Of a stretch of 64,000 bases of DNA, positions 11,261-34,057 are shown one piece after another. The stretch covers positions 11,421 to 75,420 of the forward strand of contig JADZEH010000032.1 of assembly GCA_020850635.1 (NCBI GenBank), in the 5' to 3' direction. The notes under the pieces are model-generated. The model worked only from the letters and a program-made list of their open reading frames with translations. It was not told the origin of the DNA and did not search any database. The position numbers were made by a program, and so were the translations under genes. Every line of letters starts with the position of its first letter. The first letter of the stretch is position 1. The DNA is from Candidatus Doudnabacteria bacterium. Its GTDB lineage: Bacteria; Patescibacteriota; Doudnabacteria; UBA920.

Positions 11261-11366
11261 ATATATTATTTTTTATGACTAGTTTGGCTAGAAAAGCATG
11301 GAAAAAGTTCTTTGTTTTTCTAGCCTTTAATTAGGCGAAAAGCGCATAGCGCTTTATTCTGGTGGA

Positions 11367-20911: not shown

Positions 20912-20914
20912 TAT

Positions 20915-21226
20915 ATGCAACATATAGGAATTGAAATTGATAATGAGACATTTAGCAAAGAAAAAAGTAGTGAGAATAACTTTGCTAAGGTATTAGGGTA
21001 TGTGTGGGAGAATACTCAGAAAGAAGATTATCCGTGGATATGGGGCATAGATGCTTATGGTTTAACAGTATTTAATATTCAGCAAACCCCAAATCTCGTA
21101 AACGAGTTATCAAAACTGAAAGATAAAGTGCAAGAAGAAGATATTAAAGCAGATATTCAAAGTTTAATAGACTTTATTACAGAGAATATGGAGCAGCACT
21201 TATATTTAAAGTTTATTGGAGATTAA
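20915..21226 (+). CDS. putative immunity protein for the RHS C-terminal toxin
   Basis: 103-aa acidic protein. It starts 4 nt after the RHS stop and has no signal peptide. This is the usual position of the cognate immunity gene. Confidence 0.5.
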   Translation: MQHIGIEIDNETFSKEKSSENNFAKVLGYVWENTQKEDYPWIWGIDAYGLTVFNIQQTPNLVNELSKLKDKVQEEDIKADIQSLIDFITENMEQHLYLKFIGD

Positions 21227-21294
21227 TAGATTATAGATTGGTAAAGCAAACCACTCCGCACTATGTGCGGAGTGGTTTGACTCATGCAGAGCTT

Positions 21295-21678
21295 ATGGAT
21301 AAAAAGAAATATGTAATTGATGGAAATAATTTCGACACCTTAGAAGGGTTTTATGATGAGGTAAGTAATGTCTTAATCCCCGGTGCTTCTTGGGGAAGAA
21401 ACTTTGATGCATTTAATGACATATTATATGGTGGATTTGGTACCCCAGATGAAGGCTTTATCCTAATATGGAAAAATGTAAAGAGATCAAAGTCTGACTT
21501 GGGAGATACCGCAACCCTTAAATGGTTAGAAGGAAAATTGCATAATATTCATCCTTCAAATATACCGATATGGAAACAAAGAATAGCTATGCATAAATTA
21601 AGGTACGGCGAAACACTCTTTATGATACTAGTAGATATTATCTTAAACCATGAAGATATAGAGCTGAGATTTCAATAA
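21295..21678 (+). CDS. barstar-like immunity protein (barnase-inhibitor family)
   Basis: The tracked ORF begins at 21238, but a perfect hairpin (CCACTCCGCACTATGTGCGGAGTGG, 21251-21277) occupies its first codons, so the ATG at 21295 (MDKKKYVIDG) is the likely start. The block YVIDGNNFDTLEGFYDEVSNVLIPGASWGRNFDAFNDIL...ILIW parallels the barstar core (INGEQI..ISDLHQTL...LPEYYGENLDALWDCL...LVLEW). Confidence 0.6.
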   Translation: MDKKKYVIDGNNFDTLEGFYDEVSNVLIPGASWGRNFDAFNDILYGGFGTPDEGFILIWKNVKRSKSDLGDTATLKWLEGKLHNIHPSNIPIWKQRIAMHKLRYGETLFMILVDIILNHEDIELRFQ

Positions 21679-21681
21679 ATT

Positions 21682-21715
21682 AAAAACAGCTATCGTGATG
21701 TAATAGCTGTTTTTA
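21682..21715. terminator. bidirectional intrinsic terminator / left edge of the recombinase element
   Basis: AAAAACAGCTAT-CGTGATGTA-ATAGCTGTTTTT hairpin with A and T runs on both sides. It lies between the convergent barstar-like and recombinase genes. Confidence 0.55.
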
Positions 21716-23410
21716 ATTTGATTTTTTGCGGCCCATCCATTTATTCCCTCGTTTTATTTTACCTTCAATTTTGAATTGAATTGCGCTAGCATCAGATGTC
21801 TGATCGGGATCGTCGTATGCTTTTAGTTTTATTGGGATTGAGCCAATTACTTTCACTTCAGTGTTGTTATAAATTACTTCTTTAATGTAATCTTTTAAAA
21901 ATTCACGAGTCTTGTCGCTGTTGTTACAAAGATTTAATCTTGATCTTACTGATTCGCAATATCTTTTTATACTAGCTTCTATAACTTCTTCTTTATGAAG
22001 ACTAGGCACCTGATTAAGCAGCTTTGCTTTATTGACATTGTGATTAGTAAGTTCACTATCATAGCTTAAGCACCTTTTTACATATTCGGCTCTATTAATT
22101 TTACCGCTGGCATATTGATCAATTGTTTGTTTTCTTTTAGTAGCAAGATCAGCTATTCGCTTTCCATTCTCTTTCAGCTTAGATTCAATTTGTTTTCGGT
22201 TTTTCAATTGACCTACATTAGTAGTTAGGCATAACTCTAGTTTGCTCGAGTCAGTCATGCTTTCTTCGATCATATTCATTACGCAAGTGTCTAGTAGCTG
22301 AGTTAGTACCTCGGGATTGTTGCATCTCACCAACCCAGTATTCGCAGTTTGTGAATGCATTCGTTGTAAAGAAATTTGGCTACATCTGTAAGCAGTCTTA
22401 TGAAATATTTTATTTGGATCCGCAACTCTGCGCTTGTCTTTATAAGTCCGGAAGTATGAGGTGAAAAATCTACCACATATTCCGCAGTTAACTAAACCTG
22501 AAAGTAACTGTGTTTGCTTCGGGTTTCTATACTGTTCGCTGTTATATTTAATTCTTGCTTGTACCTTATTAAAAAGTTCCTGCGAGATGATCGCAGGAAC
22601 TTTCACTGGTATCCATTCAGATTTATTTTTGTAAACCTTCTTGCCGTACTTCAGTCCTCTTAGGGGACTATTTGGCTCTTTCACATAAGATCTCGTATTA
22701 TAGTATTTAATTCCGGTATAAGTGTGGTTTTGCAAAATGTTTTTTAGTTTAGAGGTATCCCAAAGTTTTCGACCCATCTTAGTAATAGCACCAATATTTT
22801 CCAGAGTTCGCACTAATTTTGCCCAACTAAATCCAGCAGCGTAGCTTTTGAAAATATATCTAACTGTTTTCGCTTCCTTTTCATTGATTATAAATTTACC
22901 TGGCTGAGTGTCGGTTCTGCGAATATATTCATACCCTAAAGCATTGTAACCGTAGTTTAATGGGATGCCTTGCCGTAGCTTGTGTAGCTTTCCTCGCTGG
23001 CTGCGTTCAATAATTTTAGCTCTTTCTAATTCTGATACTGCACCAAGTACTGTTAAGGTAAACTTGTTCTCAGGGTTATGGATGTAATCTTTGCCATTAA
23101 TTATTATTTGCTTTTTGTATTTGAGTATTTCCGCGATAATTAAGTTTTGGTAAGTAACATCTCTGGCTATGCGATCTGAATTTAAGAAGTAGATAGTATC
23201 AAACAGGGGAGTCTTAAGATCACTGCGTAGCTGATCAAGTGCAGGTCTGTCGATCTTGGCTCCACTATACCCATCGTCAATGTATTCTTTCGTTAACACA
23301 TCGCCACTTTTAGAAACTTGCTTTTTAAGTTCCTCAATTTGGCTTTCAATGGTTCGCTCTTTTTCTTGCAGAGCTGTACTTACTCTGGCATAGATCGCTG
23401 CTTTCTTCAT
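21713..23410 (-). CDS. large serine recombinase (resolvase/invertase catalytic domain + recombinase domain + zinc ribbon)
   Basis: 565 aa. The N-terminus MKKAAIYARVSTALQ carries the catalytic Ser. A long recombinase domain and a Cys-rich ribbon (CGICGRFF...C) follow. It overlaps the upstream paralogue by 4 nt (ATGA). Confidence 0.85.
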   Translation of the reverse strand: MKKAAIYARVSTALQEKERTIESQIEELKKQVSKSGDVLTKEYIDDGYSGAKIDRPALDQLRSDLKTPLFDTIYFLNSDRIARDVTYQNLIIAEILKYKKQIIINGKDYIHNPENKFTLTVLGAVSELERAKIIERSQRGKLHKLRQGIPLNYGYNALGYEYIRRTDTQPGKFIINEKEAKTVRYIFKSYAAGFSWAKLVRTLENIGAITKMGRKLWDTSKLKNILQNHTYTGIKYYNTRSYVKEPNSPLRGLKYGKKVYKNKSEWIPVKVPAIISQELFNKVQARIKYNSEQYRNPKQTQLLSGLVNCGICGRFFTSYFRTYKDKRRVADPNKIFHKTAYRCSQISLQRMHSQTANTGLVRCNNPEVLTQLLDTCVMNMIEESMTDSSKLELCLTTNVGQLKNRKQIESKLKENGKRIADLATKRKQTIDQYASGKINRAEYVKRCLSYDSELTNHNVNKAKLLNQVPSLHKEEVIEASIKRYCESVRSRLNLCNNSDKTREFLKDYIKEVIYNNTEVKVIGSIPIKLKAYDDPDQTSDASAIQFKIEGKIKRGNKWMGRKKSN

Positions 23411-25119
23411 AATTTTTCAATTACTAATTTCCCATATTCCTTCTTTGGAATTTCTTTGCCGTTAATGGTTTGATCATCTGTATTTAATTGCTTCACTCTA
23501 TTCAGTGCTTCTATTCGGTTGATTACTTGTTCAATCTTGAATTCAATTGGAACTGTTTCATCTTTTGAGACTTCAATCGCAATAGCACCTATCAGTTTGA
23601 TTTTGTCATCGGATTTGCCGTTTTTGCGGTATTCCACCTTGGCGATGTAGTCCAGTAAGAATTGTCGTTTAGAATTAAAATCTCCACATCTAGTAAATTG
23701 AGACTTTAAAGTTTTACAGTATTGTTCAGTACTCGCTTTGATAACTTCCGGTTTTTGAAATAGAGGTAGATATTTTAATAATTCAGCTCGCTTAGTTTGC
23801 AGGTTGCCAACTTCTTCATCATAGATAGAGATTCTCTTAACATATTCTTCTCGTTCCAAATCCCCAAAAGAGTAGAGATCAATTATCCGTTCTTTTTGTT
23901 TGCTAACTGTTTTGATTTTACTCTCCACATCTTTAATCTGTTTATCTAGTTTAGATTGATTCTTTTGATTATTGCCTAAGCTAATATAATTTCGGAGCTC
24001 ATTAGGTTTAAGTAATATACTCGTGACCATTTCAACTACCGTTGAATCTAGTACCCTGGTATCAATCTCAGGGTTATGGTTTATGCCTTTAGTTCTGCAT
24101 CGGTATACCGCTTTTTGATATAGCTTAATTCCAGACTTTCTTTCGACTTTGTAATACCTTCGATAGGCGAAGCATCTCAGTTTGCATTTACCGCAGAACA
24201 CTAGATTAGATAGTAGCTGGGTTCGCTGTGCATTTCTAAAACATTCATAGTTATATTTCATCCTTGCTTGCACTTGGTCAAATAATTTCTTTGGTACAAT
24301 TTGCGGTATTTTTATTCCAACCCATTCCGAGCGGTCTCTGTGGATTTTCTTGCCGCGCTTAGTTCTGCGGATTACATTTCCAACCGCATTCGTATCCGTC
24401 ATGGTATTGAAATACTTTGTGCCTGTATAGGTCTCGTTTTGTAGAATGTATTTTAGATGCCCATCACCAAGTTTGTTTCTTTGCTCTTTGGCTAGACCCT
24501 TCGTTTTTAGCTGTCTCGCTAATTCTTTCAGTCCAATATTTCCTTTTGCATACGTTTCAAAAATATACCTTACTATTTTTGCCTCGTGTTCGTTGATTGC
24601 ATAAGAGGGGGAAGAGTCTGTTGTTCTTGGCGTGTATATATAACCATAAATATGACAACCGTTGCTTAACAGATATCCTTGTTTTAATCTGTGCTGCGAT
24701 CCGCGCCTTGTTCTCTCTAACGTTTTAGCTCGCTCCAATTCTGATACCGCACCTAATACCGTGAGTGTGAATTTGTTTTCTGGGTTATTTACATAATCCT
24801 TCCCATTGATAATGATCTGCTTTTTGTAATGCAGAAATTCGCTGATAATAATATTCTGGTAAGTTACATCTCTGGCAATGCGATCAGCATTCAAAATGTA
24901 GATAGTCTGAAATCCCAGAGTTCTAATATCTCTCCTCAGGTCATTCATAGCTGGTCTATCCAGCAAGCATCCGCTGAATCCATCGTCGATGTATTTTTTT
25001 ACCAAAACATCCCCAGAAGCTCTAATTTGCCTTTTAAGCTCCGATATTTGGCTTTCTATAGTTCGCTCCTTCTGCTGGGCATCGGAGCTTACTCTTGCAT
25101 AAAATACTGCTCTTTTCAT
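23407..25119 (-). CDS. large serine recombinase (paralogue of the downstream gene)
   Basis: 570 aa with N-terminus MKRAVFYARVSSDAQ. It is about 60-65% identical to the 21713-23410 product over the first 150 aa (…IARDVTYQN.II.E.L.YKKQIIINGKDY.NPENKFTLTVLGAVSELERAK…). This is a tandem pair reminiscent of CcrA/CcrB-type two-recombinase elements. Confidence 0.85.
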   Translation of the reverse strand: MKRAVFYARVSSDAQQKERTIESQISELKRQIRASGDVLVKKYIDDGFSGCLLDRPAMNDLRRDIRTLGFQTIYILNADRIARDVTYQNIIISEFLHYKKQIIINGKDYVNNPENKFTLTVLGAVSELERAKTLERTRRGSQHRLKQGYLLSNGCHIYGYIYTPRTTDSSPSYAINEHEAKIVRYIFETYAKGNIGLKELARQLKTKGLAKEQRNKLGDGHLKYILQNETYTGTKYFNTMTDTNAVGNVIRRTKRGKKIHRDRSEWVGIKIPQIVPKKLFDQVQARMKYNYECFRNAQRTQLLSNLVFCGKCKLRCFAYRRYYKVERKSGIKLYQKAVYRCRTKGINHNPEIDTRVLDSTVVEMVTSILLKPNELRNYISLGNNQKNQSKLDKQIKDVESKIKTVSKQKERIIDLYSFGDLEREEYVKRISIYDEEVGNLQTKRAELLKYLPLFQKPEVIKASTEQYCKTLKSQFTRCGDFNSKRQFLLDYIAKVEYRKNGKSDDKIKLIGAIAIEVSKDETVPIEFKIEQVINRIEALNRVKQLNTDDQTINGKEIPKKEYGKLVIEKL

Positions 25120-25388
25120 ACCAACATTGATGACGCAGCTTCTTGATCTAGTCTAGGCCAGCTGTTGGTAACTTTCGACTTTACTTTAACTCCAACCCAA
25201 GCTAGGATGGACTGGATTATGCGCCCTAAATATCGTATAATTGCATTAACAACTTAATGCCTAACCCCTCAGGAATGAGGATATGGCGCTAAAACCTATC
25301 ACAGATACTGAACCCTCCGTTCAGCTACTGTGATAGGTCGTATCTGGAAACAGGTACGGGACCGCAAGGTCCATGCTGGCGGGGGGCT

Positions 25389-25997
25389 TTGTGTTTTCTG
25401 CCAGCAAGAAAGCCTATCACAAACATGGACAATCAATCTGCCTCACCAGAGGCAAAACAACCTTCCATTCTATGGAAGCGTATTAAGACTATCGCTAAAG
25501 GTATAGCTATTTTCATAGTCGTACTTATAGTTGCAGCTGTGTGGCAAAGTATGAATCAACCACAGTCACAAACGCAGTCGCAAGGCACGGCTCAACAAGC
25601 AGAAGAACCAAAAGAAGAACAAACTCCTGCTAAAGAACCTCCCGTTGAACCATTCAATATTGAAGTTACCAGTCAGATAGTCAAAAAAGTAGACGGCAAA
25701 TACCGCTACTTCTTTGACATCAGAAACAAAGACACTAAGAACTTTGAGGGAGCAGTGACTATTAATTTGCTAAGAGCAAATAACAGTAGGCTTGGCTCAG
25801 ATACGTTTACTACTACAAGAGCTATTGAACCTAATCTTGGTTTTGCTCAATACATTGAAATTAATTCAGGACCAATGCCGATGTTTGATTCAGAATCAGC
25901 AATTACTAAATTCACATACGAAGTGAAGATAGATAAGAAATCCGTGAAGAGCGGAGAAGGAGTTATTACAGATAAGTTTGAGAACTTAGATTATTAA
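25389..25997 (+). CDS. hypothetical secreted/membrane-anchored protein
   Basis: 202 aa. The likely start is the internal Met (MDNQSAS, about 25431). It has one N-terminal TM helix, then a Gln/Glu/Pro-rich linker and a beta-rich domain. Confidence 0.45.
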   Translation: MCFLPARKPITNMDNQSASPEAKQPSILWKRIKTIAKGIAIFIVVLIVAAVWQSMNQPQSQTQSQGTAQQAEEPKEEQTPAKEPPVEPFNIEVTSQIVKKVDGKYRYFFDIRNKDTKNFEGAVTINLLRANNSRLGSDTFTTTRAIEPNLGFAQYIEINSGPMPMFDSESAITKFTYEVKIDKKSVKSGEGVITDKFENLDY

Positions 25998-26560
25998 ATT
26001 GCATCTTCTTCCGTTTCTAGGCCACCAGACTCTAAATAACCTTTAACTGGTTTATCTGAGTATCTATCTTCATCATCTACATAATCAGGGTGAGTTGTAT
26101 CGTACCTATGAACTACCGCATTTGCAGCTCTAGTGAATAAATCAAAGACATTATCAATTTGCTCTTTAACTTCTTCTGTAACCTCTGGATGTTTGGCCTG
26201 TACCTTGAATTCATTAATCACAGTCCTGCGATCAGAAAATTTTGGATCACGACTCTTAAGCCAAAATATGGCAGCCGTCATATTGCCTTTACTCATTTCC
26301 TCAATGAGTTTTGATTGAGCAAGTTCATTAATAACCATAGAACCTTCACGGACTGCTTCTGTCGCAACTCTATCAAACTCAGCATCTTCCTCGCACCAGC
26401 GATAGTATGTAGACCTAGCTATGCCAACTTTCTTCACTGCTACTTGCACCACAGGCATCTTTAAAAGCACTTCTACTAATTGAAGTTTTTGTTCAGCGAT
26501 ACGCTTGGCAATCTTTTCTAGTTCCTTTTTATTCTTTGGAGTTTTGCTGGTCTTTACCAT
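25994..26560 (-). CDS. HTH DNA-binding protein, possibly a phage terminase small-subunit-like regulator
   Basis: 188 aa with the helix-turn-helix segment VGIARSTYYRWCEED and a charged N-terminus. Its context next to a phage-type methyltransferase suggests phage origin. Confidence 0.45.
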   Translation of the reverse strand: MVKTSKTPKNKKELEKIAKRIAEQKLQLVEVLLKMPVVQVAVKKVGIARSTYYRWCEEDAEFDRVATEAVREGSMVINELAQSKLIEEMSKGNMTAAIFWLKSRDPKFSDRRTVINEFKVQAKHPEVTEEVKEQIDNVFDLFTRAANAVVHRYDTTHPDYVDDEDRYSDKPVKGYLESGGLETEEDAI

Positions 26561-27893
26561 AGTCTTTATCGCTACTGATCTTAACCGCTTTAGAACCAGT
26601 TAACTTTTCCCAGCGTTTGATAATCACTTCAGTGTAAGTGGGAACTTTCTCCATTGTGTAGCAACGGCGAGCCATTTTCTCACAGGCTATGAGTGTACTG
26701 CCAGAGCCGCCATATGGTTCGACTACAAGCCCTCCGCGTTCAGTGAGTACTTTGATGTAGGGAATAAGGATTTCCACTGGTTTAGTACCAAAGATAATAC
26801 CTTGACCAGAAGACTTCTCGTCACTGGCTTTGTATTCAATAAAGTCAGTAGGACAAATCTTTTTACCTTTCTCATAGTTCTCCCAGTGCGGTTTTCCTGA
26901 AATGGCAAATAAAGCTGTTTCGTATTCTTCTTGAAGCAAAGCTTCTTCCTCAGCAGTATTAAGATGGGCATCGCCAGAAGTGCCAACCATAGCAATATCA
27001 TGCTTGTTAAAGAATTTATGTTTAGCTGCAAATCCTTGAGTACGATTGGGCAAGTGCCAGACAATCATGTTTTTCACTTTCCAATACTTTTCCATCTCAG
27101 ACCAAATGGTGCGAAGATTTTTCCAGTTCTCATATACGATGATACTGAAATCTTCTTTGGCGAATTTAGCAATGTTGGTCATCCAAAGCTCGGTGAAGTT
27201 ATCTGGCAATTCATCTGTTTCCATATACCTACGGTCGCGCTTCAAACCAAAGCCACTCTTGTCCTGACCTTTCTTTTTACCTTTCAGGTAATCCAAGATG
27301 TATGGCGGATCTGTTAAACACAAATCTGCTTTCTCGTTGTTCATCAAGCGGAGAAAATCTTTTTCAATGGTAGAGTCGCCGCACATCAGGCGGTGTTTGC
27401 CTAATTGATAAATATCTCCCTTTTGAACTTTCACTTCAGTGATATCCAACTTCTTGAGCTCTTTTTCCAGATCAAAGACTTCTGGATTTTCCTCAACAGC
27501 AAAGATCTCATCAAGTTCCTCGCTGATAAAGCCGATATCGCTCAGTAGCGATTCGTCAAAAGCAGAGAGGAGTTCCAAATCAAACTCACCACGGTTTTTA
27601 TTTAAGCGCAGGTTAAGTTCTTTTTCTTTTGTTTCATCAGGAATATTCAGATACACCACTGGTGCTTCTGTTTTCCCAAGTTCTTTTAATGCCGCAATGC
27701 GCATGTGTCCGCCGATGAGAATGTTCTTGCGGGTTTCTGCACTGTTCACGAGCAGTGCTTCTACTGTACCGAAGCGCTTAATGCTTTCCTTAAGCTGACT
27801 AAGTGCTTCTTTTGACCACTTGCGTGGGTTGTAGGTGGCAGTAATGAGCTCCTCAATTGGCACATACTGCACCTGAAGTTTTTCGTTTTTCAT
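26529..27893 (-). CDS. ParB-like nuclease domain fused to an N6-adenine/N4-cytosine DNA methyltransferase
   Basis: 454 aa. The N-terminal ParB/Srx-like segment is IEELITATYNPRKWSKEALSQLKESIKRFGTVEALLVN. The MTase motif IV is DPPY (LCLTDPPYILDY), and the C-terminal SAM-binding region is EPYGGSGST. This architecture is common in phage and plasmid orphan methyltransferases. Confidence 0.8.
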   Translation of the reverse strand: MKNEKLQVQYVPIEELITATYNPRKWSKEALSQLKESIKRFGTVEALLVNSAETRKNILIGGHMRIAALKELGKTEAPVVYLNIPDETKEKELNLRLNKNRGEFDLELLSAFDESLLSDIGFISEELDEIFAVEENPEVFDLEKELKKLDITEVKVQKGDIYQLGKHRLMCGDSTIEKDFLRLMNNEKADLCLTDPPYILDYLKGKKKGQDKSGFGLKRDRRYMETDELPDNFTELWMTNIAKFAKEDFSIIVYENWKNLRTIWSEMEKYWKVKNMIVWHLPNRTQGFAAKHKFFNKHDIAMVGTSGDAHLNTAEEEALLQEEYETALFAISGKPHWENYEKGKKICPTDFIEYKASDEKSSGQGIIFGTKPVEILIPYIKVLTERGGLVVEPYGGSGSTLIACEKMARRCYTMEKVPTYTEVIIKRWEKLTGSKAVKISSDKDYGKDQQNSKE

Positions 27894-28072
27894 GAACGTA
27901 AAGTTAATTATTTAACCTTTACAGTTCAATTTAAGTACAAGTTTAGTTCAGTCTTAGACAATTTAGGTACAAAAAAACCGCGAGCTGGGATAATCCAGTA
28001 TTCACAGTTAAGGTTCAAATAAAACAGTACTTAAAGTATATCACCATCGTCCTTTTATTGCCTGTGGAAAAG

Positions 28073-28081
28073 TGGTAAAAT
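28073..28081 (+). promoter_or_regulatory. extended -10 promoter element upstream of the 1132-aa gene
   Basis: TGgTAAAAT at 28073-28081, about 40 nt upstream of the TTG start at 28123. The preceding intergenic region carries direct repeats AATTTAAGTACAAG and AATTTAGGTACAAA plus a small hairpin CTGGGATAATCCAG. Confidence 0.4.
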
Positions 28082-28122
28082 ATAGATATTTATTGTTTTT
28101 TCCAGCATAAATTTTATAGATT

Positions 28123-31100
28123 TTGAACCCTGATCAAGAACAAAATATTGGCTCTAATGAGCCAACCCCAGTTGAAGATTTGCTATCTTCTGCTTCAGAT
28201 AAGCAGAAGAAAATTAGAGATGCCTTAATTAACCTTGACCCTGAGTTTGGAAAAAGATTGTCCCAGGTTTATGAGGGTTTAATCTTAGGATTTAATTATA
28301 AAGTTAATCCTGAGAGAATACCACAAGTTTGTCATTCTGCAAGAGAGTTATCGTCGATTCTGCCCAGGTATTTTCCTGGACTTCCAATATTAGAGCGCGT
28401 TGATAATAGAAAAAATCCTGATGAACCTAGACAAAGAGAATTACTGAAAGGGATTTTAGGCAATCATCCTGAGCGAAGCGCTTTGCCTGAATACCTCCAA
28501 GAGACATTTGTAGATGAGTGGATGAATGTTCATGACTATTTTAATAAATATTCAAAACACGATGATATCAAAAATAAAAATGGTTTAGAAATTTCAGAAC
28601 AAGAATTTGAAGCTAATGTTTGGAAGTTTGAGGACCTGCTTTACAGAACTTTAGTTGAGATACCATTCTTTGATTCGCTGGATGAGATCGAATCATTGTT
28701 AAAAATAGAAAACCCTACTGATTCTAATGTAGCAACATTATCACAGCTCATCGCTCAGCCTCAACACAACAGATATTTTTTTGAAAAATGTAACAACCCA
28801 GAATGGTTGGCACCTCTTAATAAAAGAGGGGCCTTTTCTAAACCCCAAGAGCCCCTTAAGCAGGATGGGTATGTACGTTTTATAGGATGGCCTGAATCGC
28901 AGTACTTAGTTCGTATTGTAGACAGGAAATCAAACGAGGTCTACGAGATCATAAAAACCCTAGATTCAGAAAATCAATCTGTCTTAGATGATTTTATTGA
29001 TGCAGCACTTAAGTCTCCAGTAGAAATCGCTGCTAAGTACGTGGAGTTAATAATAAAGAAGAAGTGGTTACAGAATCCGTATAATCTTTTACTGCCAGAC
29101 AAGGTCGCGGAATTAATGGAAAAGTTAGCAGCGGCTGGAAAAGTTGACGAAGCAATAAAATTAGCTAGGGTATTATTTGATGTCCATATTGTAAAACCAG
29201 TCAGTGAAACAAACGAAGAAATTCCATTGTCATGGATTCGACCCGAAGCGAAGCCTTACTTTGATGAGTGGAGATACAAAGAAGTAATTACCAAGAAAAC
29301 AAAAGAGATTGCTAAAGCAAGCCCAGTTTTATTATTTCAAACTTTGGCTACAATCCTTCATCAAGCTTTAGATTTGGAAAAAAGAGAAAATGTATCTGAT
29401 GATTTTTATGAGTATTCCCACATTTGGAGACCAAACCTCGGGCATACTAGAAACCCTAATAGAGAAGATGCTAAAAACGTTTTAATCGACGGTTTGATTG
29501 AGTTAATCGAAAATAATAAAAATGACACTACAGTTATGGAAGGATTTGTGGAAATTTTAAGTAAACATAATCAAGGTTTCTTCAGAAGGTTGGAGATGTT
29601 TCTTCACCTGAATGCAACTGAGCCGCAAACCGAAGCAATTGAAAAATTGCTTACCGAAAAAAAGATTATTACTTCGTATAATCTAAGACGTGAATATTTG
29701 CCATTGTTAGAGAAGTTCTTCTCAACAATAACCTCTCAAGGACAAAATACAATTCTTGAAGCCATAGATTCAGGCCCCAATCTAACAAAAACAGATGATA
29801 CTACAACTGAGCAATTTGATGCTATGAATAACCGATGGCGTAGTATGTATTATGGGTCAATAAAACAGGTATTGCTTTCACCGCACAAAGAAAAGTATGA
29901 AGAATTGCAGATATTAACTGGTCCAGTAGTAATTGATGATGGAGAGCTCAAAGTTACCGGTGGGTGGATTGGGGACGAAAGTCCTTTGTCTATGGAAGAT
30001 ATGAAAAGTATGAAACCAGATAAGGTAATTGATTACCTGAGAGATTTCAAGGATTCAGGCGACTTTTCTGAAAGAATGTCTTCCTCGGGGTTAGGCATTA
30101 TTTTTGGAAATGTGGTTGCAGAAAATCCAGAAACGTACATTTCAGTTGCCGGTGATTTACTAAGTAACAAATTAAAACCACTGTACATCTATCATTTTTT
30201 GAATGGCATTAAGCAAACCCTAAAAGAACCTAGGGTTTTAGATTGGAAACCTGTTATTGATTTGTGCTACTCAATTATCTTCGTTAAGTCAGGGGAATCG
30301 CTTACGAAACCTGGTAATGACAGTGAACAAAATTGGGATTCTGTGCATATGGCTATTGCTGATCTTTTAGGAGCAGCTTTGGGTGATAAAAATACTTCCG
30401 TTTCAGTAGACTTACAAAGTCCTATTTGGGATATTATTTTAGAATTGACCAAAAATGAAGAACCTACTATTGAAGATGAAGAACGGGATAATGGGGGAAA
30501 CCTTGATCCTATGACTCTCTCAATCAATACTGTGAGAGGAGAGGCATTGCATGCAGTGGTTAATTATGCACTGTGGTTAGATAGGTTTAGCGTAGATATT
30601 AAAAAACTGGGATCGAAAATTCCTAAAATTGTCGAGGATGTATTAGATTTTCATTTAGACACTAACAATGATCCTTCGCTAGCAATTAGATCTGTTTACG
30701 GATGGAGACTGCCCAACCTGTCTTACCTAAGTATGGAATGGGTTAAGTCTAGAAAAGATAAAATTTTCCCAAAAGAAAAAGGATCAGAAAAATTATTTTT
30801 ATCTGCTTTTGAAAGTTATCTGACTAATAATGTGTACCATGATCTGTTCGATCTGTTTATCGAAGAGTATCGTATTGGTATATCTCTGCTTGGAACGGTC
30901 GAAAAGGAAGGATATCATGGCGCTGATATAAACGAAAAATTACCTCAACATTTAATGATTACTTATGTGCATGATGCTAAGCACGATGATCTTATTCGTC
31001 ATTTTTTTGATGTGGCGCCTGTTAAGTCTAGAATACAAGCTATTAATTTTGTAGGAAGAGTAATCTTTGGAGAACTATCAAAATTAGATAATCCTAAATA

Positions 31101-31521
31101 CGCAATTGAACGGTCACTAAAATTATGGGATGATAGACTATCCGCAACAAATGCAAATATTGCAGAAGAGTTACAAGAATTTGGGTGGTGGTTTAAGCGT
31201 AGCCCTTTCTCTCGTCAGGATAACATTACCAGACTTGTAAAAACTCTAGAGCTCACCAATGGTTTAATTGATGCTCCTTATGAGGTGGCAGAAGAACTTC
31301 AGGAGTACTCAGCAACCTTTCCTCTGGAAGTAATTACGGCCTTGTCATTAATTGCGCATGGCATAAAAGAAGGTCATGAGATTTCTTATAAAATGAATGA
31401 GTACAGAGAAATTATTACTAAAGTAAAAGAATCTGGTAATACAGAAGCAGTCAACAAAGCAAATGAATTAATAAACTATCTTGGTTCCAGAGGCTTCATT
31501 GATTTTAGGGATTTACTCTAA
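28123..31521 (+). CDS. large hypothetical protein (1132 aa), predicted soluble and helical, no recognisable domain
   Basis: The long ORF has a TTG start, and the first in-frame ATG is more than 100 codons in. It has no signal peptide or TM segment, and no Walker, HExxH, DEAD, GxSxG or Cys-cluster motif. It is rich in Leu, Glu and Lys with heptad-like stretches, consistent with HEAT/ARM or TPR-like solenoids. It is translationally coupled to the next gene (TAATG). Confidence 0.6.
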   Translation: MNPDQEQNIGSNEPTPVEDLLSSASDKQKKIRDALINLDPEFGKRLSQVYEGLILGFNYKVNPERIPQVCHSARELSSILPRYFPGLPILERVDNRKNPDEPRQRELLKGILGNHPERSALPEYLQETFVDEWMNVHDYFNKYSKHDDIKNKNGLEISEQEFEANVWKFEDLLYRTLVEIPFFDSLDEIESLLKIENPTDSNVATLSQLIAQPQHNRYFFEKCNNPEWLAPLNKRGAFSKPQEPLKQDGYVRFIGWPESQYLVRIVDRKSNEVYEIIKTLDSENQSVLDDFIDAALKSPVEIAAKYVELIIKKKWLQNPYNLLLPDKVAELMEKLAAAGKVDEAIKLARVLFDVHIVKPVSETNEEIPLSWIRPEAKPYFDEWRYKEVITKKTKEIAKASPVLLFQTLATILHQALDLEKRENVSDDFYEYSHIWRPNLGHTRNPNREDAKNVLIDGLIELIENNKNDTTVMEGFVEILSKHNQGFFRRLEMFLHLNATEPQTEAIEKLLTEKKIITSYNLRREYLPLLEKFFSTITSQGQNTILEAIDSGPNLTKTDDTTTEQFDAMNNRWRSMYYGSIKQVLLSPHKEKYEELQILTGPVVIDDGELKVTGGWIGDESPLSMEDMKSMKPDKVIDYLRDFKDSGDFSERMSSSGLGIIFGNVVAENPETYISVAGDLLSNKLKPLYIYHFLNGIKQTLKEPRVLDWKPVIDLCYSIIFVKSGESLTKPGNDSEQNWDSVHMAIADLLGAALGDKNTSVSVDLQSPIWDIILELTKNEEPTIEDEERDNGGNLDPMTLSINTVRGEALHAVVNYALWLDRFSVDIKKLGSKIPKIVEDVLDFHLDTNNDPSLAIRSVYGWRLPNLSYLSMEWVKSRKDKIFPKEKGSEKLFLSAFESYLTNNVYHDLFDLFIEEYRIGISLLGTVEKEGYHGADINEKLPQHLMITYVHDAKHDDLIRHFFDVAPVKSRIQAINFVGRVIFGELSKLDNPKYAIERSLKLWDDRLSATNANIAEELQEFGWWFKRSPFSRQDNITRLVKTLELTNGLIDAPYEVAEELQEYSATFPLEVITALSLIAHGIKEGHEISYKMNEYREIITKVKESGNTEAVNKANELINYLGSRGFIDFRDLL

Positions 31522-32114
31522 TGCCACGGCAACAAGTTAAAGATATGTATATAGTACTTAAGGATTTTGAACCAATGGTAAAAGATCCGCGGTTCTTGAG
31601 GAATGGCCGTCCTATTCCTAACTTTTCTGTTTTACCTCGAGAGGCTTGGGCTAACTGGCTTTTGTGTGTGGTACTTAGAGATTTTTTTCAACATGATATT
31701 ACTTTCGCGGAAGATGATGAAACTGATGGAGTAATTTATGATAAGGATACTAACCAATGGTTTTTTACTGAACATGTCTGTGCGCTGCAAACTCCTGGAC
31801 CTCATGCTAGTCTAAAAGGCGAAGATCGGGTAATGTATGCAATACAACATAAAATAGATAGAGGTGTTGATTATGCTCGTGGAAAAAGGTTGGTTGTATT
31901 TATAGAAGATGCTGGTGAGTGGTTTCCTAATAGAGTAGGGAGGTCTATTCATGGAACGCATAGCTTTGATGCAGTGTACTGCATTGGTATTAGCTCGCTA
32001 ACAGATGATGGCTATACGTACTTCGTTACTCAGTTAGATCACCAAAATTCTCCAGCTTGGAAAGTTTTTATCAATATGGATTTCACTGATTGGCAAGTAA
32101 TCAGACTTCAATAA
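31521..32114 (+). CDS. hypothetical protein (197 aa), coupled to the upstream large protein
   Basis: Its start overlaps the stop of the 1132-aa ORF, and there is no recognisable motif. Confidence 0.5.
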   Translation: MPRQQVKDMYIVLKDFEPMVKDPRFLRNGRPIPNFSVLPREAWANWLLCVVLRDFFQHDITFAEDDETDGVIYDKDTNQWFFTEHVCALQTPGPHASLKGEDRVMYAIQHKIDRGVDYARGKRLVVFIEDAGEWFPNRVGRSIHGTHSFDAVYCIGISSLTDDGYTYFVTQLDHQNSPAWKVFINMDFTDWQVIRLQ

Positions 32115-32133
32115 TACTAAATTTTGATTCTAA

Positions 32134-32496
32134 ATGGACATTAATAGCTTATTAGATCAAATAATACATAATACAATATTAAATTTTTGGGCAATAATAA
32201 AAACAAGCTGGTCTTCACTTTGGCCTTATGTTTTAGGGCTTGCAGTACTTATACTTGGCGGTATAATTCTACAAATTATTATGCTACGCAGTGGTAGTCA
32301 TAATAAACTTTCTGCTGGTTTTAATAGTCTTGTTGGCAGCCTATTTTGGTTCATCTTCTTTGCCATCTTGTTAGGTATAGCTTACGTAGTATTTGGTCCT
32401 CAGGTTATTGATGAAATATGGTTCGGATTACTTAGCATGATCGCATTTTTTCTAGCAGGCGGGTTCCTCAGACTAATCGGCTTCTGGTATTATTAA
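32134..32496 (+). CDS. small integral membrane protein (3 TM)
   Basis: 120 aa and hydrophobic. It is the third gene of the cassette, 20 nt after the previous stop. Confidence 0.5.
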   Translation: MDINSLLDQIIHNTILNFWAIIKTSWSSLWPYVLGLAVLILGGIILQIIMLRSGSHNKLSAGFNSLVGSLFWFIFFAILLGIAYVVFGPQVIDEIWFGLLSMIAFFLAGGFLRLIGFWYY

Positions 32497-32763
32497 CCAG
32501 CCCTTTTTATACTGTCTCATTTGTCTCATTTTGGTGCTATACTAATCCTGAAAGCACATTCAAAATCTCTATATATTGTCTTCGGAGGATTGCAGGAATG
32601 GATCAACCCAAAATTCGGATTGCGAACCTCAAAAATGTCCTCACAGGGTCTCAAATTTCTTTCCAAGTTTGCGTTCTATGTCTCACTTTTACTCTTGCAG
32701 GAATGCGGAGCAGGTGAAGGGTAGTGTGGTTACGCAGGCTCAGAGCTAGATGCAGATACAGGC

Positions 32764-33585
32764 TTGAACTATATGCAAGCTAGGTACTATAATTCTAGTA
32801 TTGGTAGATTTATCAGCCAGGATCCAGCTTACTTGAATCTAAATAGATTAGATGTGCAGTTAAGTGATCCACAAAGTTGGAATAGTTATGCTTATGCCAG
32901 GAACAACCCACTTGCATTAGCTGATCCAACAGGGGAATTCTGGGATACTTTTATAGATGGTATATCTCTTGGGTACAGTCTGCATCAGACTTTATACAAT
33001 GGAACCAAAGCTTTGGGTGGATATGCTTCCATCGGTGCTGGGAAGGTGTTTAACAATCAGTATGCCATAAATGCTGGTAGAGCAGATGTAGCTCGGTATG
33101 GGGCAAAGACAGCCAATAGTGCTCAGGGTTTAGCGATTGATGCAGTTGGTACTGCAGTTCCTTTTGTTCCTGCTGCTGGTATTAAAGCGGCGGCTAAGGC
33201 TGATGCAGTTATAGATATAGCAAAATCTGTCAAACAGGCTGGGGTTGCTGAGGTGTCTCCACTTCTTCGTTCAGGGGATTCTTTTACACAGGCAGGAGAG
33301 CATGTGCTTAGAGATCACCCAAATCGATATCCTGGCATGTCAGCTGAGGATGTAGCAAACTTGGCAAGACAAACTCAGAAGACCGCGAATACAAAGGGAA
33401 CCATCAGAGGTATTGACCCAAGAACTGGACAACCAGTGAATAAAAATTATTATGGGAGTAAGTCTACTGGTCAAATGTTCATAAAAACTAACTTAGGGAA
33501 TTCAACTATTTTTCCTAAGCAAAATATTGGTAGTTATATATATAGACACATATCGAAAGATATTGGTAAATTTGGAAGGAGATAG
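32764..33585 (+). CDS. orphan RHS C-terminal toxin module (RHS core tail plus alternative toxin tip)
   Basis: The tracked start is TTG, but homology to the main RHS core begins at an in-frame stop near 32713. The conceptual translation there is YAGSELDADTGLNYMQARYYNSSIGRFISQDPAYL...SYAYARNNPLALADPTGE, against YTGHEYDVDTGLSYMEARYYNPNIGRFLSQDPVFL...SYSYARNNPLAYIDENGE in the main gene. A toxin domain of about 200 aa follows, Ala/Gly-rich and unlike the main tip. Confidence 0.7.
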   Translation: MNYMQARYYNSSIGRFISQDPAYLNLNRLDVQLSDPQSWNSYAYARNNPLALADPTGEFWDTFIDGISLGYSLHQTLYNGTKALGGYASIGAGKVFNNQYAINAGRADVARYGAKTANSAQGLAIDAVGTAVPFVPAAGIKAAAKADAVIDIAKSVKQAGVAEVSPLLRSGDSFTQAGEHVLRDHPNRYPGMSAEDVANLARQTQKTANTKGTIRGIDPRTGQPVNKNYYGSKSTGQMFIKTNLGNSTIFPKQNIGSYIYRHISKDIGKFGRR

Positions 33586-33586
33586 T

Positions 33587-33916
33587 ATGATTAAGTTTGA
33601 TCAATATACTTGGTTAGTTATAATTGAAGCTATCGATTCATGTTCAGAAGCTGATCCTGAGTTAATTGAAAAAGAAACTGGTTTTCAGTTACAACAATTT
33701 GAAGACTTTAAAGAAAAATACGTAAATTCTATTCAAAAGAGCATGAATCAAGATGATTTACCAATAGTAGTAGCAGCTTTAGAATGGATGTTGGTGACCA
33801 AGAATGATTCGGACATATTACAGATTCATAAGGAAGATGGATTACGTCTTCTTGAATTACTAAGTCAGAAAAGGGGTGAAATAAGAGAAGCGGCATGGTC
33901 ATTGCATTCTGTATAG
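33587..33916 (+). CDS. putative immunity protein for the orphan RHS toxin
   Basis: An ATG sits 1 nt after the orphan toxin stop, preceded by GGAAGGAG. It encodes about 109 acidic residues. The track gives a longer 33527 start that overlaps the toxin. Confidence 0.5.
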   Translation: MIKFDQYTWLVIIEAIDSCSEADPELIEKETGFQLQQFEDFKEKYVNSIQKSMNQDDLPIVVAALEWMLVTKNDSDILQIHKEDGLRLLELLSQKRGEIREAAWSLHSV

Positions 33917-34057
33917 TGATTGGATATAGTTAACCATAAAACAGGCCGTATGGCCTGTTTTAGTTTGCATCAAATAATAAAAGCCGCCGTGTCTATTTCT
34001 CCCGAGGGAAAATTAGAACACGGCGTTGTTCTGCTTGGTTCCCGAACAGTAGCGGGG

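What the first reader, a model, noticed from the sequence alone, without database searches (positions are those of the whole stretch)
32716..33916. Orphan RHS C-terminal toxin and immunity module displaced about 11 kb from the main RHS gene
Homology to the RHS core (…DxDTGLxYMxARYYNxxIGRFxSQDP…SYxYARNNPLA…) starts exactly at an in-frame stop near 32713 and continues into a completely different tip of about 200 aa, followed 1 nt later by a small acidic ORF. This is the classic signature of a displaced toxin tip left by recombination in the conserved core. Here it is separated from the main gene by a recombinase-bearing mobile element rather than lying directly downstream.
Basis: seen in the sequence. 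Interest (0 to 1): 0.55.

Follow-up and report, generated by a model that had tools for sequence, protein, structure and literature searches.

The report
RHS toxin tip displaced by recombinase element
The "spare" toxin-and-antidote gene pair is the original end of a giant RHS toxin gene, cut off when a 12.6-kb mobile element carrying its own serine recombinases inserted a different toxin end into the gene; this looks like a site-specific way of swapping bacterial weapons and recurs across Patescibacteria.

Summary
After an in-frame TAG (32722-24), an open frame encodes an RHS core end (51% identical to the main RHS, E 3e-25), an unrelated basic tip, and 1 nt later an acidic 109-aa ORF.

The mechanism differs from classic homologous tip displacement. 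Two metagenome contigs from different samples are 100% identical to the window, but they join the RHS body (…20095) directly and in frame to the orphan (32731…) at a shared 3-bp TAC. The window therefore carries a 12,638-bp insertion (20096-32733). Its left end supplies the current core end, tip Y, an immunity gene and a Barstar-like gene. It also carries two large serine recombinases (LSRs), a LOOT RNA, a TerS-like HTH protein, a ParB-methyltransferase and a Dsr1-like gene.

In 18 of 25 informative loci holding related LSRs, an RHS 3' end lies convergently 1.1-3.7 kb after the recombinase. A conserved ~23-nt element-end motif abuts displaced tips at the same codon in nine contigs.

Best reading: an LSR integrative element targets the RHS core-coding sequence and swaps the toxin tip. 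The toxin domain is a rare family with weak similarity to colicin D/CdiA-CT RNase folds.

I rate it a new variant of a known kind, interest about 0.75. No recombination activity or circular form was shown.

The parts
13973..20095 (+). Resident RHS gene body: signal peptide, SpvB, FG-GAP and RHS repeats, up to the Tyr codon of ...EQRKY.
   Evidence: Translation and Pfam. Positions 17432-20095 are 100% identical to the element-free contigs L001/L002.
20093..20095 (+). Left junction (attL-like): the TAC shared with the right junction. RHS body on the left, element-borne sequence on the right.
   Evidence: Four-way alignment and coordinates.
20096..20911 (+). Element-borne replacement 3' end of the RHS gene: core end (TGHEYDVDTGL...DENGEW) plus tip Y.
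   Evidence: Absent from L001/L002. A tip Y-like sequence (45% identity) is also linked to an LSR-A remnant in L003. Weak sub-threshold Ntox50 hit.
20915..21226 (+). Candidate immunity protein for tip Y (103 aa, pI 4.5).
   Evidence: Position and charge. A 41%-identical homologue sits in the same position in L003.
21238..21678 (+). Barstar-like protein (orphan RNase-inhibitor-type immunity gene).
   Evidence: Pfam PF01337, E 1.9e-9.
21713..23410 (-). Large serine recombinase LSR-A (565 aa).
   Evidence: Resolvase + Recombinase + Zn-ribbon domains. PHROG integrase, 9.6e-81.
23407..25119 (-). Large serine recombinase LSR-B (570 aa). It overlaps LSR-A by 4 nt.
   Evidence: Pfam. 100% identical to a Candidatus Doudnabacteria MAG protein.
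25258..25372 (+). LOOT RNA (RF03000), divergent from LSR-B. A hallmark of the element family.
   Evidence: Rfam 83.6 bits against a gathering score of 46.4. Present in 11 of 13 related loci.
25389..32496 (.). Element cargo and backbone: a 202-aa protein, a TerS-like HTH protein (25994-26560, minus strand), a ParB_N + N6/N4 methyltransferase (26529-27893, minus strand), a Dsr1-like 1132-aa protein (28123-31521), and 197-aa and 120-aa proteins.
   Evidence: Pfam, PADLOC and PHROGs. The HTH and ParB-methyltransferase genes are each shared by 17 related loci.
32497..32730 (+). Non-coding right end of the element. It ends in the conserved P-arm motif GAGCAGGTGAAGGGTAGTGTGGT (32708-32730), which contains the in-frame TAG at 32722-24.
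   Evidence: About 72% identical to the right end in L003. The P-arm motif is aligned across 10 junctions.
32731..32733 (+). Right junction (attR-like): the shared TAC.
32731..32940 (+). Orphan RHS core end (YAGSELDADTGLNYMQARYYNSSIGRFISQDP...NNPLALADPTGEF).
   Evidence: BLASTP E 3e-25 against the main RHS. It is the attached 3' end of the RHS gene in L001/L002.
32941..33252 (+). Pre-toxin linker region. The same linker precedes other toxin types in other RHS tips (EndoU, RNase PF00545) and ends ...AGVAEVSPLL.
   Evidence: Alignment A2.
33253..33585 (+). Toxin domain X (110 aa, pI 10.3). A rare family found only at the C-termini of RHS proteins, with a probable colicin D/CdiA-CT-like (BECR) RNase fold.
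33587..33916 (+). Candidate immunity protein X (109 aa, pI 4.5).
   Evidence: 1 nt after the toxin stop, with a Shine-Dalgarno sequence. A 66%-identical homologue lies 1 nt after a full-length RHS carrying a 62%-identical tip in L027.
33938..33961 (.). Perfect hairpin AAAACAGGCC-GTAT-GGCCTGTTTT between immX and the convergent desaturase gene. Probably a bidirectional terminator.
   Evidence: Read directly from the sequence. The simple terminator scan did not list it.

Best explanation
The orphan is the native 3' end of the RHS gene at 13973, together with its native immunity gene. It was split off by a 12,638-bp integrative element (window 20096-32733).

The element encodes two large serine recombinases. 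Its left end carries a ready-made replacement: the last ~80 codons of an RHS core, toxin tip Y and its immunity gene.

Inferred mechanism:
1. A circular form of the element carries an attP made of the conserved right-end arm (…GAGCAGGTGAAGGGTAGTGTGGT), TAC, and the RHS-core-like left arm.
2. It recombines with an attB inside the RHS core-coding sequence, at the Tyr codon of …EQRK-Y-xGxExD….
3. The RHS shell is then fused in frame to tip Y.
4. The old tip X and immX end up 12.6 kb downstream, behind a stop codon supplied by the element arm.

After integration the cell would fire toxin Y. It keeps immX (and immY), so it remains protected from element-free kin that still fire X. Excision would restore tip X.

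Tip X is most likely a small basic RNase of the colicin D/CdiA-CT (BECR) fold, neutralised by the acidic helical protein encoded 1 nt downstream.

Shown: the simple insertion, its exact boundaries, the in-frame empty site, the recombinase genes, and the family-wide linkage and end motif.
Inferred: catalysis by the LSRs, a circular intermediate, the direction and reversibility of the event, and the toxin and immunity activities.
For: 1. Empty site. L001 (ERZ15185638) and L002 (ERZ28620071) come from two samples and two assemblers. They have 0 differences from window 17432-20095 and from 32731-34388 apart from N gaps, and they join the two segments at a shared TAC with the ORF in frame.

2. Not homologous recombination and not an assembly chimera. 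The longest exact match between the two core copies is 10 nt and lies elsewhere. The first 105 nt after the junction are 65% identical.

3. Recombinases. Both proteins have Resolvase + Recombinase + Zn-ribbon domains.

4. Family-wide geometry. In 18 of 25 informative non-duplicate loci found through LSR homology alone, an RHS core end lies on the opposite strand 1.1-3.7 kb after the LSR. In many of these it is the 3' end of an ORF of more than 2000 codons (L010, L011, L014, L020, L023, L024). Several also have a second, truncated core end 8-13 kb away on the other side.

5. Conserved end motif. GAGCRGGTGtcGG... lies 9-23 nt before the same codon at 11 displaced-tip junctions in nine contigs. 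Sequence further upstream is unrelated between them.

6. The tip travels with the element. L003 has a tip Y-like gene (45%), an immY-like gene (41%), an LSR-A remnant (79%) and a right end like the window's. Its displaced orphan is a different, EndoU-type tip.

7. Toxin and immunity.
- The toxin domain occurs only at RHS C-termini.
- The toxin-immunity gene pair is conserved after a full-length RHS in L027.
- pI is 10.3 for the toxin domain and 4.5 for the immunity protein.
- The top fold hit is CdiA-CT, with colicin D also listed.
Against: - No circular or attP junction was found in exact-match scans of JGI metagenomes and IMG/VR. None of the element's proteins that were looked up is indexed elsewhere.
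- I saw no dyad symmetry between the two attP arms when I compared them by eye. Classical LSR att sites do show such symmetry. Two different recombinases could explain this, but I did not test it.
- The empty-site contigs have low coverage (0.58x for L001) and carry N gaps 150-280 nt after the junction.
- Integration cannot be told apart from excision.
- Some related loci hold orphans with long core fragments (219-280 codons) and no end motif (L010, L023, L015). A homologous route therefore also seems to operate.
- In relatives where only one LSR gene was detected, the motif abuts a position about 17 codons further into the core.
Confidence: 0.75

Rival explanations
1. Classic C-terminal displacement by homologous recombination (the Jackson et al. 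2009 model). A circle carrying a core fragment plus tip Y crossed over with the resident core by RecA-type recombination. The recombinases are passengers.
For: This is the accepted model for enterobacterial rhs arrays (PMC2935791). Some related loci do have orphans with long, near-identical core fragments and no end motif (L023, L010).
Against: - The join is at 3 bp of identity.
- The element side upstream of the join matches the RHS body at only 11 of 24 positions.
- The longest exact match in the repeat is 10 nt.
- The body is 100% identical to the empty site right up to the TAC.
- The same codon and the same end motif recur in unrelated genomes.
Confidence: 0.08
2. Two separate events. A small tip Y cassette displaced tip X earlier, and an unrelated LSR island later landed between them. 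L001/L002 would then be secondary deletions.
For: LSR-less mini-cassettes bounded by the same end motif exist. L006 has a 2.1-kb cassette and L008 has tandem cassettes.
Against: - The flanks are 100% identical in the empty-site contigs, so both events plus a codon-precise deletion would have to be very recent.
- A tip Y-like/immY-like pair is adjacent to the same LSR lineage in L003.
- The convergent RHS-tip/LSR geometry is conserved in 18 of 25 loci.
Confidence: 0.08
3. Assembly artefact. Either the window contig or the short contigs are chimeric across the repeated RHS core.
For: All of these are metagenome assemblies. L001/L002 are low-coverage scaffolds with N gaps near the junction.
Against: - No shared k-mer longer than 10 nt exists to mislead an assembler.
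- The junction lies in contiguous sequence, with 147-278 nt of orphan-specific DNA after it.
- It was recovered in two independent samples.
- The occupied geometry recurs in many independent MAGs.
Confidence: 0.03
4. The orphan is a working stand-alone toxin-antitoxin-like module, translated from an internal start (TTG 32764 or ATG 32773), rather than a silent reserve.
For: - The ORF is intact.
- In L003 the orphan EndoU tip stays open although the element's recombinase has decayed.
- Promoter-like hexamers are somewhat enriched in 32100-34100: 11 found against 6.1 expected.
- The abstract of PMC7043789, listed, reports TA-like behaviour of a Salmonella orphan.
Against: - There is no Shine-Dalgarno sequence before either internal start.
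- The insertion is too recent (100% identical flanks) for an intact ORF to say anything about selection here.
- This reading is compatible with the best explanation rather than exclusive of it.
Confidence: 0.2

Closest known systems
RHS orphan tip/immunity arrays formed by C-terminal displacement (Jackson et al. 2009, PMC2935791; Salmonella orphan rhs, PMC7043789)
   Same: A truncated core end, a variable toxin and an immunity gene lie downstream of a full-length RHS of the same clade. The new tip displaces the old one without deleting it.
   Different: - The published model uses homologous recombination with variable-length core fragments. [quoted passage not shown]
- Here the breakpoint is a fixed codon with 3 bp of identity.
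- Here a conserved element-end motif abuts the orphan.
- Here the incoming tip is physically part of a recombinase-encoding element.
SCCmec-type elements with paired large serine recombinases (ccrA/ccrB) that integrate in the 3' end of rlmH/orfX (from my own knowledge)
   Same: Two adjacent LSR genes. Integration is inside the 3' part of a conserved host gene, and the element supplies the replacement 3' end.
   Different: - In SCCmec the replaced codons keep the host protein essentially unchanged. Here the replaced part is a different toxin domain, so integration changes the gene's function.
- I did not test whether these LSRs are related to CcrA/CcrB.
Gene-interrupting LSR elements whose excision restores the gene (B. 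subtilis skin/SpoIVCA in sigK, SPbeta/SprA in spsM, Anabaena XisF) (from my own knowledge)
   Same: An LSR element sits inside a coding sequence. The element-free allele is an intact in-frame gene.
   Different: Those elements inactivate the gene until they excise. Here both states encode a complete RHS toxin, each with a different warhead.
Integron cassettes and recombinase-associated immunity-gene arrays in Bacteroidales (rAID) (from my own knowledge)
   Same: Site-specific recombinase-linked stacking of small cassettes. Possible LSR-less mini-cassettes bounded by the same motif occur in L006 and L008.
   Different: - Those systems use tyrosine recombinases and attC-type sites, and they insert promoterless whole genes.
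- Here a serine recombinase family is involved and the insertion point is inside an ORF, creating protein fusions.
C-terminal switching of phage tail-fibre genes by serine invertases (Gin/Cin/Pin) (from my own knowledge)
   Same: A serine recombinase exchanges the C-terminal, specificity-determining part of a long protein at a site inside the coding sequence.
   Different: That system uses inversion by a small invertase between resident alternatives. Here a 12.6-kb mobile element is integrated and brings a foreign alternative.
BECR-fold RNase toxins: colicin D and CdiA-CT (PDB 8ey4, 5i4q, 1tfk/5znm)
   Different: No sequence similarity, Foldseek not significant, catalytic residues not mapped. 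At the sequence level it is a distinct, uncharacterised family with 11 representatives.

Membership tests
RHS orphan (displaced) toxin/immunity module | A fragment homologous to the 3' end of an RHS core (…TGL.Y..ARYY….GRF.S.DP…NNP…DP.G) without the YD-repeat shell or N-terminal region. | tested here: met
   BLASTP E 3e-25, starting 2 codons after an in-frame stop.
RHS orphan (displaced) toxin/immunity module | A C-terminal tip unrelated to that of the adjacent full-length gene. | tested here: met
   No alignment beyond DPxGEF/W. The tip families differ.
RHS orphan (displaced) toxin/immunity module | A small cognate immunity gene immediately downstream. | tested here: met
   109-aa acidic ORF 1 nt after the stop. 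The pairing is conserved (66% and 62% identity) after a full-length RHS in L027. Neutralisation itself was not tested.
RHS orphan (displaced) toxin/immunity module | Located downstream of a full-length RHS gene of the same clade. | tested here: met
   Main gene 13973-20911, with SpvB, FG-GAP and RHS repeats. The orphan starts 11.8 kb after its stop.
RHS orphan (displaced) toxin/immunity module | Origin by homologous recombination within the core (the classic model). | tested here: not met
   3-bp junction, longest shared exact stretch 10 nt, body identical to the empty site up to the junction.
Large-serine-recombinase integrative element | Encodes an LSR with resolvase catalytic, recombinase and zinc-ribbon domains. 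| tested here: met
   Two such genes. PHROG integrase hits of 1e-76 to 1e-80.
Large-serine-recombinase integrative element | Discrete boundaries shown by occupied-site versus empty-site comparison, without long target duplication. | tested here: met
   A 12,638-bp simple insertion with only TAC shared at both ends.
Large-serine-recombinase integrative element | A conserved element-end (attP arm) sequence next to the crossover in related elements. | tested here: met
   P-arm motif at 11 junctions in nine contigs.
Large-serine-recombinase integrative element | Imperfect dyad symmetry of the att sites around a 2-bp crossover. | tested here: inconclusive
   No symmetry was seen when I compared the P and P' arms by eye. 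The crossover dinucleotide cannot be resolved within TAC.
Large-serine-recombinase integrative element | A circular intermediate (attP junction) and recombinase-dependent integration and excision. | tested here: inconclusive
   An exact attP query found nothing in two collections. Activity is not testable with these tools.
BECR-fold (colicin D / CdiA-CT) RNase toxin | Fold similarity to solved members. | tested here: inconclusive
- Foldseek probability 0.89 for 8ey4 but E 0.09.
BECR-fold (colicin D / CdiA-CT) RNase toxin | Catalytic residues and RNase activity. | not testable with these tools
   Invariant H17, K64, Y66, T85, F87, Y95 and D103 in the family alignment are candidates only.
Integron-type cassette system | A tyrosine integrase (IntI) with attI/attC sites. 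| tested here: not met
   The recombinases are serine-type. I did not look for attC-like structures.

The most novel reading that the evidence does not exclude
Patescibacteria may carry a dedicated, integron-like system for exchanging RHS warheads. In this reading, a clade of (often paired) large serine recombinases uses a conserved stretch of the RHS core-coding sequence as its attB.

Autonomous 8-13-kb elements would carry the recombinases, a LOOT RNA, a TerS-like protein, a ParB-methyltransferase and defence cargo. Recombinase-less mini-cassettes would carry the same end motif. Both kinds would be inserted one after another.

Each insertion would re-arm the RHS shell with a new toxin and push the previous toxin/immunity pair into a growing orphan array. 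Excision would be able to re-arm an older tip.

This would supply the 'missing integrase' of the 2009 circular-intermediate model. It would also give the orphan LOOT RNA a biological context.
Probability: 0.45. Interest if true: 0.85.

Novelty: new variant of a known kind. Interest (0 to 1): 0.75.

Why it matters
How polymorphic-toxin genes acquire new tips, and why old tips pile up as orphans, has been explained by homologous recombination with hypothetical circles. No dedicated enzyme has been identified.

Here a natural occupied/empty pair at 100% identity shows one event in which a recombinase-encoding element delivers the new tip at a fixed codon. The same linkage recurs across several Patescibacteria lineages. 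If the recombinases are responsible, four things follow.

1. Toxin exchange becomes a programmed, possibly reversible, site-specific reaction that can be reconstituted with defined attP and attB sequences.
2. The element gains an obvious selfish advantage. Its host can kill element-free kin with toxin Y while staying immune to their toxin X.
3. Orphan arrays become readable as insertion histories.
4. A new set of serine integrases with predicted att sites, and a context for the LOOT RNA, become available.

It also shows that contact- or secretion-based antagonism is actively evolving in ultra-small epibiotic bacteria.

Tried and rejected
- **Pfam on the orphan, immX, tip Y and immY:** no significant family, even at E up to 5. 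The only hit was a sub-threshold Ntox50 match for tip Y.
- **Profile search of the toxin family against PDB sequences:** nothing meaningful.
- **Foldseek against the PDB:** no hit with E below 0.001.
- **Exact look-ups of element proteins** (immY, the 120-aa protein, LSR-B): no contigs returned, so no second copy or alternative context of this exact element was found.
- **Exact attP junction searches** in JGI metagenomes and IMG/VR: empty.
- **Read-through or pseudogene idea:** I considered that the upstream in-frame ORF (MSSQGLKFLSK…, 32635-32721) is a signal peptide of a short secreted RHS interrupted by a nonsense mutation. I rejected this because the stretch is the conserved non-coding right end of the element. 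It is also present in L003, where stops interrupt the corresponding frame.
- **Recent internal duplication of the core:** rejected, since nucleotide identity is only 65-71%.
- **Literature searches** combining rhs/polymorphic toxin with serine recombinase, attB, Patescibacteria or CPR found no description of this arrangement. The library does not cover most subscription journals.
- **LOOT RNA:** it is not discussed in the main text of the paper that I recalled as its source.
Full report
**1. The observation**

Translating the frame that contains the finding gives …QECGAGEG*CGYAGSELDADTGLNYMQARYYNSSIGRFISQDP…NSYAYARNNPLALADPTGEFWDTF….
- The in-frame stop is TAG at 32722-24.
- The frame then stays open for 286 codons, to TAG 33583-85.
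- BLASTP against the C-terminal part of the 2312-aa RHS protein (13973-20911) gives 51% identity over 97 residues, E 3e-25. The match starts at orphan residue 3 (Tyr, 32731-33) and ends just after DPTGEF / DENGEW. Nothing aligns beyond that.
- ATG 33587 lies 1 nt after the stop, behind GGAAGGAG. It opens a 109-aa ORF of pI 4.5. The last 110 residues of the orphan have pI 10.3.
- The two candidate immunity proteins are unrelated to each other.
- The main protein has a signal peptide, SpvB, FG-GAP and RHS repeats.

**2. What lies between the main gene and the orphan**

Downstream of the main RHS stop (20911) lie, in order:
- a 103-aa acidic ORF
- a Barstar-like ORF (PF01337, E 1.9e-9)
- two overlapping large serine recombinase genes on the minus strand, each with Resolvase + Recombinase + Zn-ribbon domains
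- a LOOT RNA (RF03000, 83.6 bits)
- a 202-aa ORF
- a TerS-like HTH protein
- a ParB_N + N6/N4 methyltransferase
- a 1132-aa protein matching the C-terminal 900 positions of the PADLOC Dsr1 model (E 3e-46)
- two small ORFs
- 234 nt of non-coding DNA

LSR-B is 100% identical to a protein of a Candidatus Doudnabacteria MAG. The 109-aa protein is also found there. The host is therefore a member of the Patescibacteria.

**3. The decisive result: element-free copies of the same locus**

An exact-sequence look-up of the 109-aa protein, and of a 179-aa gene% identical to the tip, returned two short contigs from two different ENA samples: L001 and L002.
- BLASTN and global alignment show 0 differences between L001 1-2664 and window 17432-20095.
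- They also show 0 differences, apart from a run of N, between L001 2662-4324 and window 32731-34388. L002 behaves the same way.
- In both contigs the RHS body therefore runs straight into the 'orphan': …GAACAGCGTAAA-TAC-GCAGGCTCAGAG…, reading …EQRKYAGSELDADTGL… in frame.
- The only sequence common to the two window junctions is TAC (20093-95 and 32731-33).

Relative to these contigs the window has one simple insertion of 12,638 bp (20096-32733).

The join cannot be an assembler's shortcut or a RecA-type crossover:
- The longest exact match between the two core copies is 10 nt and lies 180 nt away.
- The first 105 nt after the junction are 65% identical.
- The 24 nt before it match at 11 positions.
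- The junction lies inside contiguous sequence, followed by 147-278 nt of orphan-specific DNA before the N gaps.

**4. Consequence for the interpretation**

The inserted block begins with the present core end, tip Y, its putative immunity gene and the Barstar-like gene, and it contains the recombinases. So the 'main' gene's current tip is the newcomer, and it arrived as part of the recombinase-bearing element. The orphan is the native end of this very gene. The stop codon that truncates the orphan lies in the last 23 nt of the element.

**5. Is this a one-off?**

I aligned LSR-B with 19 homologues and used the alignment to fetch loci from one-genome-per-species contigs and from JGI metagenomes. 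No RHS information went into that search.
- Among non-duplicate loci with at least 2 kb of sequence after the last recombinase gene, 18 of 25 have an RHS core end on the opposite strand 1.1-3.7 kb downstream. This is the window's geometry.
- In L010, L011, L014, L020, L023 and L024 that core end belongs to an ORF with more than 2000 codons upstream.
- L011, L014, L020 and L024 also have a truncated core end 8-13 kb away on the other side of the recombinase, i.e. in the orphan position.
- The HTH and ParB-methyltransferase genes are each found in 17 loci.
- LOOT RNA is found in 11 of 13 loci scanned.

**6. A conserved element end**

I took the DNA just upstream of the truncated core ends and aligned it. 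This reveals a shared motif, GAGCRGGTGtcGGnCA…, ending at the same Tyr/Phe codon. It occurs in the window, L003, L006, L008 (twice), L011, L013 (twice, one of them weaker), L015, L021 and L034. Sequence further upstream is unrelated between lineages.

In a second group (L014, L018/L026, L020, L024, L039), mostly loci where only one LSR gene was detected, the same motif abuts a position about 17 codons later, just before (Y)[LM]xARYY.

L006 has a 2.1-kb cassette bounded by the RHS body and the motif but with no recombinase. L008 has two motif-bounded tips in tandem next to the recombinases. This suggests stacking and perhaps mobilisation in trans. That is inference only.

**7. The tip travels with the element**

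L003 carries, in order:
- an RHS end with a tip 45% identical to tip Y
- an ORF 41% identical to immY
- a 143-aa remnant 79% identical to the C-terminus of LSR-A
- inserted genes, including a retroelement (bAvd + RT)
- a right end about 72% identical to window 32511-32730
- a displaced orphan whose tip is an EndoU nuclease with its own small downstream ORF

So the same element lineage has displaced a different resident tip in another genome.

**8. What the orphan encodes**

Alignment with homologues shows three parts:
- the core end (32731-32940)
- a ~105-aa linker, which also precedes EndoU and PF00545 RNase domains in other proteins and ends …AGVAEVSPLL
- a 110-aa terminal domain

An exhaustive HMMER search of 1.84 billion representatives found only 11 relatives of that terminal domain. 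Those I inspected (P0173, P0174, P0176, P0179, P0182) carry it at the C-terminus, directly after an RHS core end; P0173 is a 2317-aa protein.

Toxin domain fold:
- The AF2 model has pLDDT 87.9 and pTM 0.80. It has two helices, a four-stranded sheet and a C-terminal helix.
- Foldseek gives 8ey4 a probability of 0.89 but no significant E-value.
- There is no sequence match in the PDB.

I read this as a probable, unproven BECR-type RNase.

Immunity protein:
- The 109-aa protein has only two other clusters of relatives.
- One of them, at 66% identity, lies 1 nt after a full-length 1682-aa RHS whose tip is 62% identical to tip X. This supports a cognate pair.
- Its model is helical (pLDDT 74), with only generic hits.

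**9. Mechanism proposed, and its status**

Shown:
- a simple 12.6-kb insertion at a fixed codon
- an in-frame empty allele
- paired LSR genes inside the insertion
- family-wide linkage of this LSR clade to RHS 3' ends
- a conserved element-end motif
- co-travel of the tip with the recombinase

Inferred:
- The LSRs catalyse attP x attB recombination at the TAC.
- A circular form exists.
- Integration re-arms the RHS with tip Y while immX is kept.
- Excision could restore tip X.

Against, or open:
- No attP junction was found.
- No dyad symmetry was seen in the arms.
- Some loci show long core duplications that fit the homologous model better.
- The empty-site contigs have low coverage.

**10. 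Comparison with what is known**

Jackson et al. 2009 proposed circular intermediates integrated by homologous recombination. [quoted passage not shown]

Full-text searches combining rhs or polymorphic toxins with serine recombinases, attB, Patescibacteria or CPR found no description of this arrangement.

Functionally the closest analogues are, from my own knowledge:
- SCCmec (paired LSRs, integration in the 3' end of a host gene)
- LSR elements that interrupt sigK or spsM
- invertase-driven switching of tail-fibre C-termini

None of these swaps a toxin domain. I therefore file the orphan itself as an ordinary member of the RHS orphan class, and its mode of origin as a new variant.

**11. Verdict**

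- Observation: confirmed.
- Best explanation: LSR-element-mediated tip replacement, confidence 0.75. Within that, my estimates are about 0.95 for the single-insertion origin of the orphan, about 0.7 for LSR catalysis, and about 0.5 for RNase activity.
- Interest: 0.75.

Noticed in passing
window 25258-25372 (+); also L007, L008, L010, L011, L014, L020, L023, L024 (two copies), L032, L034, L055: LOOT RNA (Rfam RF03000) is listed in Rfam as an sRNA gene, and I know of no reported function for it. It occurs in the window's element and in 11 of 13 related recombinase loci scanned, often 150-350 nt upstream of the recombinase gene and divergent from it. It appears to be a hallmark of this element family.
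   Followed up: partly
window 28123-31521 (+): The 1132-aa cargo protein has no Pfam hit. It matches positions 291-1215 of the PADLOC Dsr1 (defence-associated sirtuin) model (E 3e-46), i.e. without the N-terminal effector part. The element therefore also seems to carry an anti-phage defence gene with a different or missing N-terminus. Its only other weak homologue among the fetched loci is in L019.
   Followed up: partly
window 25994-26560 (-) and 26529-27893 (-): A terminase-small-subunit-like HTH protein and a ParB_N + N6/N4 DNA methyltransferase form a conserved backbone with the recombinases (17 related loci each). This is reminiscent of phage satellites and may hint at how the element moves between cells.
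   Followed up: partly
window 21238-21678 (+): A Barstar-like protein with no barnase-type toxin next to it. It looks like an orphan immunity gene carried as element cargo, between immY and the recombinases.
   Followed up: no
window 32511-32537; also L015, L021 and L013 just before the end motif: The repeated motif TACTGTCTCATTTGTCTCATTTTGGTG lies about 170 nt before the end motif in the window but directly abuts it in three other loci. A related copy (TGTCTCACTTTTACTCTTGCAGG) sits at 32680-32702. It could be an accessory binding site or an outward-facing promoter.
   Followed up: no
L006 7847-9959; L008 14857 and 16493: RHS tip cassettes bounded by the RHS body, or another cassette, on one side and the conserved end motif on the other, with no recombinase inside. 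These are possible non-autonomous cassettes, and tandem stacking of tips.
   Followed up: partly
L003 3378-4772: A diversity-generating retroelement (bAvd + reverse transcriptase) sits inside a decayed copy of the element family, between the RHS tip and the displaced EndoU orphan.
   Followed up: no
window 11331-13211: A GC-rich island (0.49-0.55 against about 0.40) just upstream of the RHS gene. It has long overlapping ORFs on both strands (614 aa on the plus strand, 406 aa on the minus strand). The plus-strand ORF has no Pfam hit and the region has no Rfam hit.
   Followed up: no
window 34058-34855 (-), and 33938-33961: The fatty-acid desaturase gene convergent with immX has GC 0.52, well above its surroundings, so it is possibly horizontally acquired. 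A perfect 10-bp-stem hairpin flanked by A and T runs lies between the two genes.
   Followed up: no
one search hits (P0002-P0049): Many Patescibacteria 'RHS repeat-associated' proteins of 250-500 aa begin at or near the Met of …YM.ARYY. They are probably gene calls on displaced tips of the same kind. Some (P0002, P0033) appear to have hydrophobic N-termini that may just be translated element ends.
   Followed up: no
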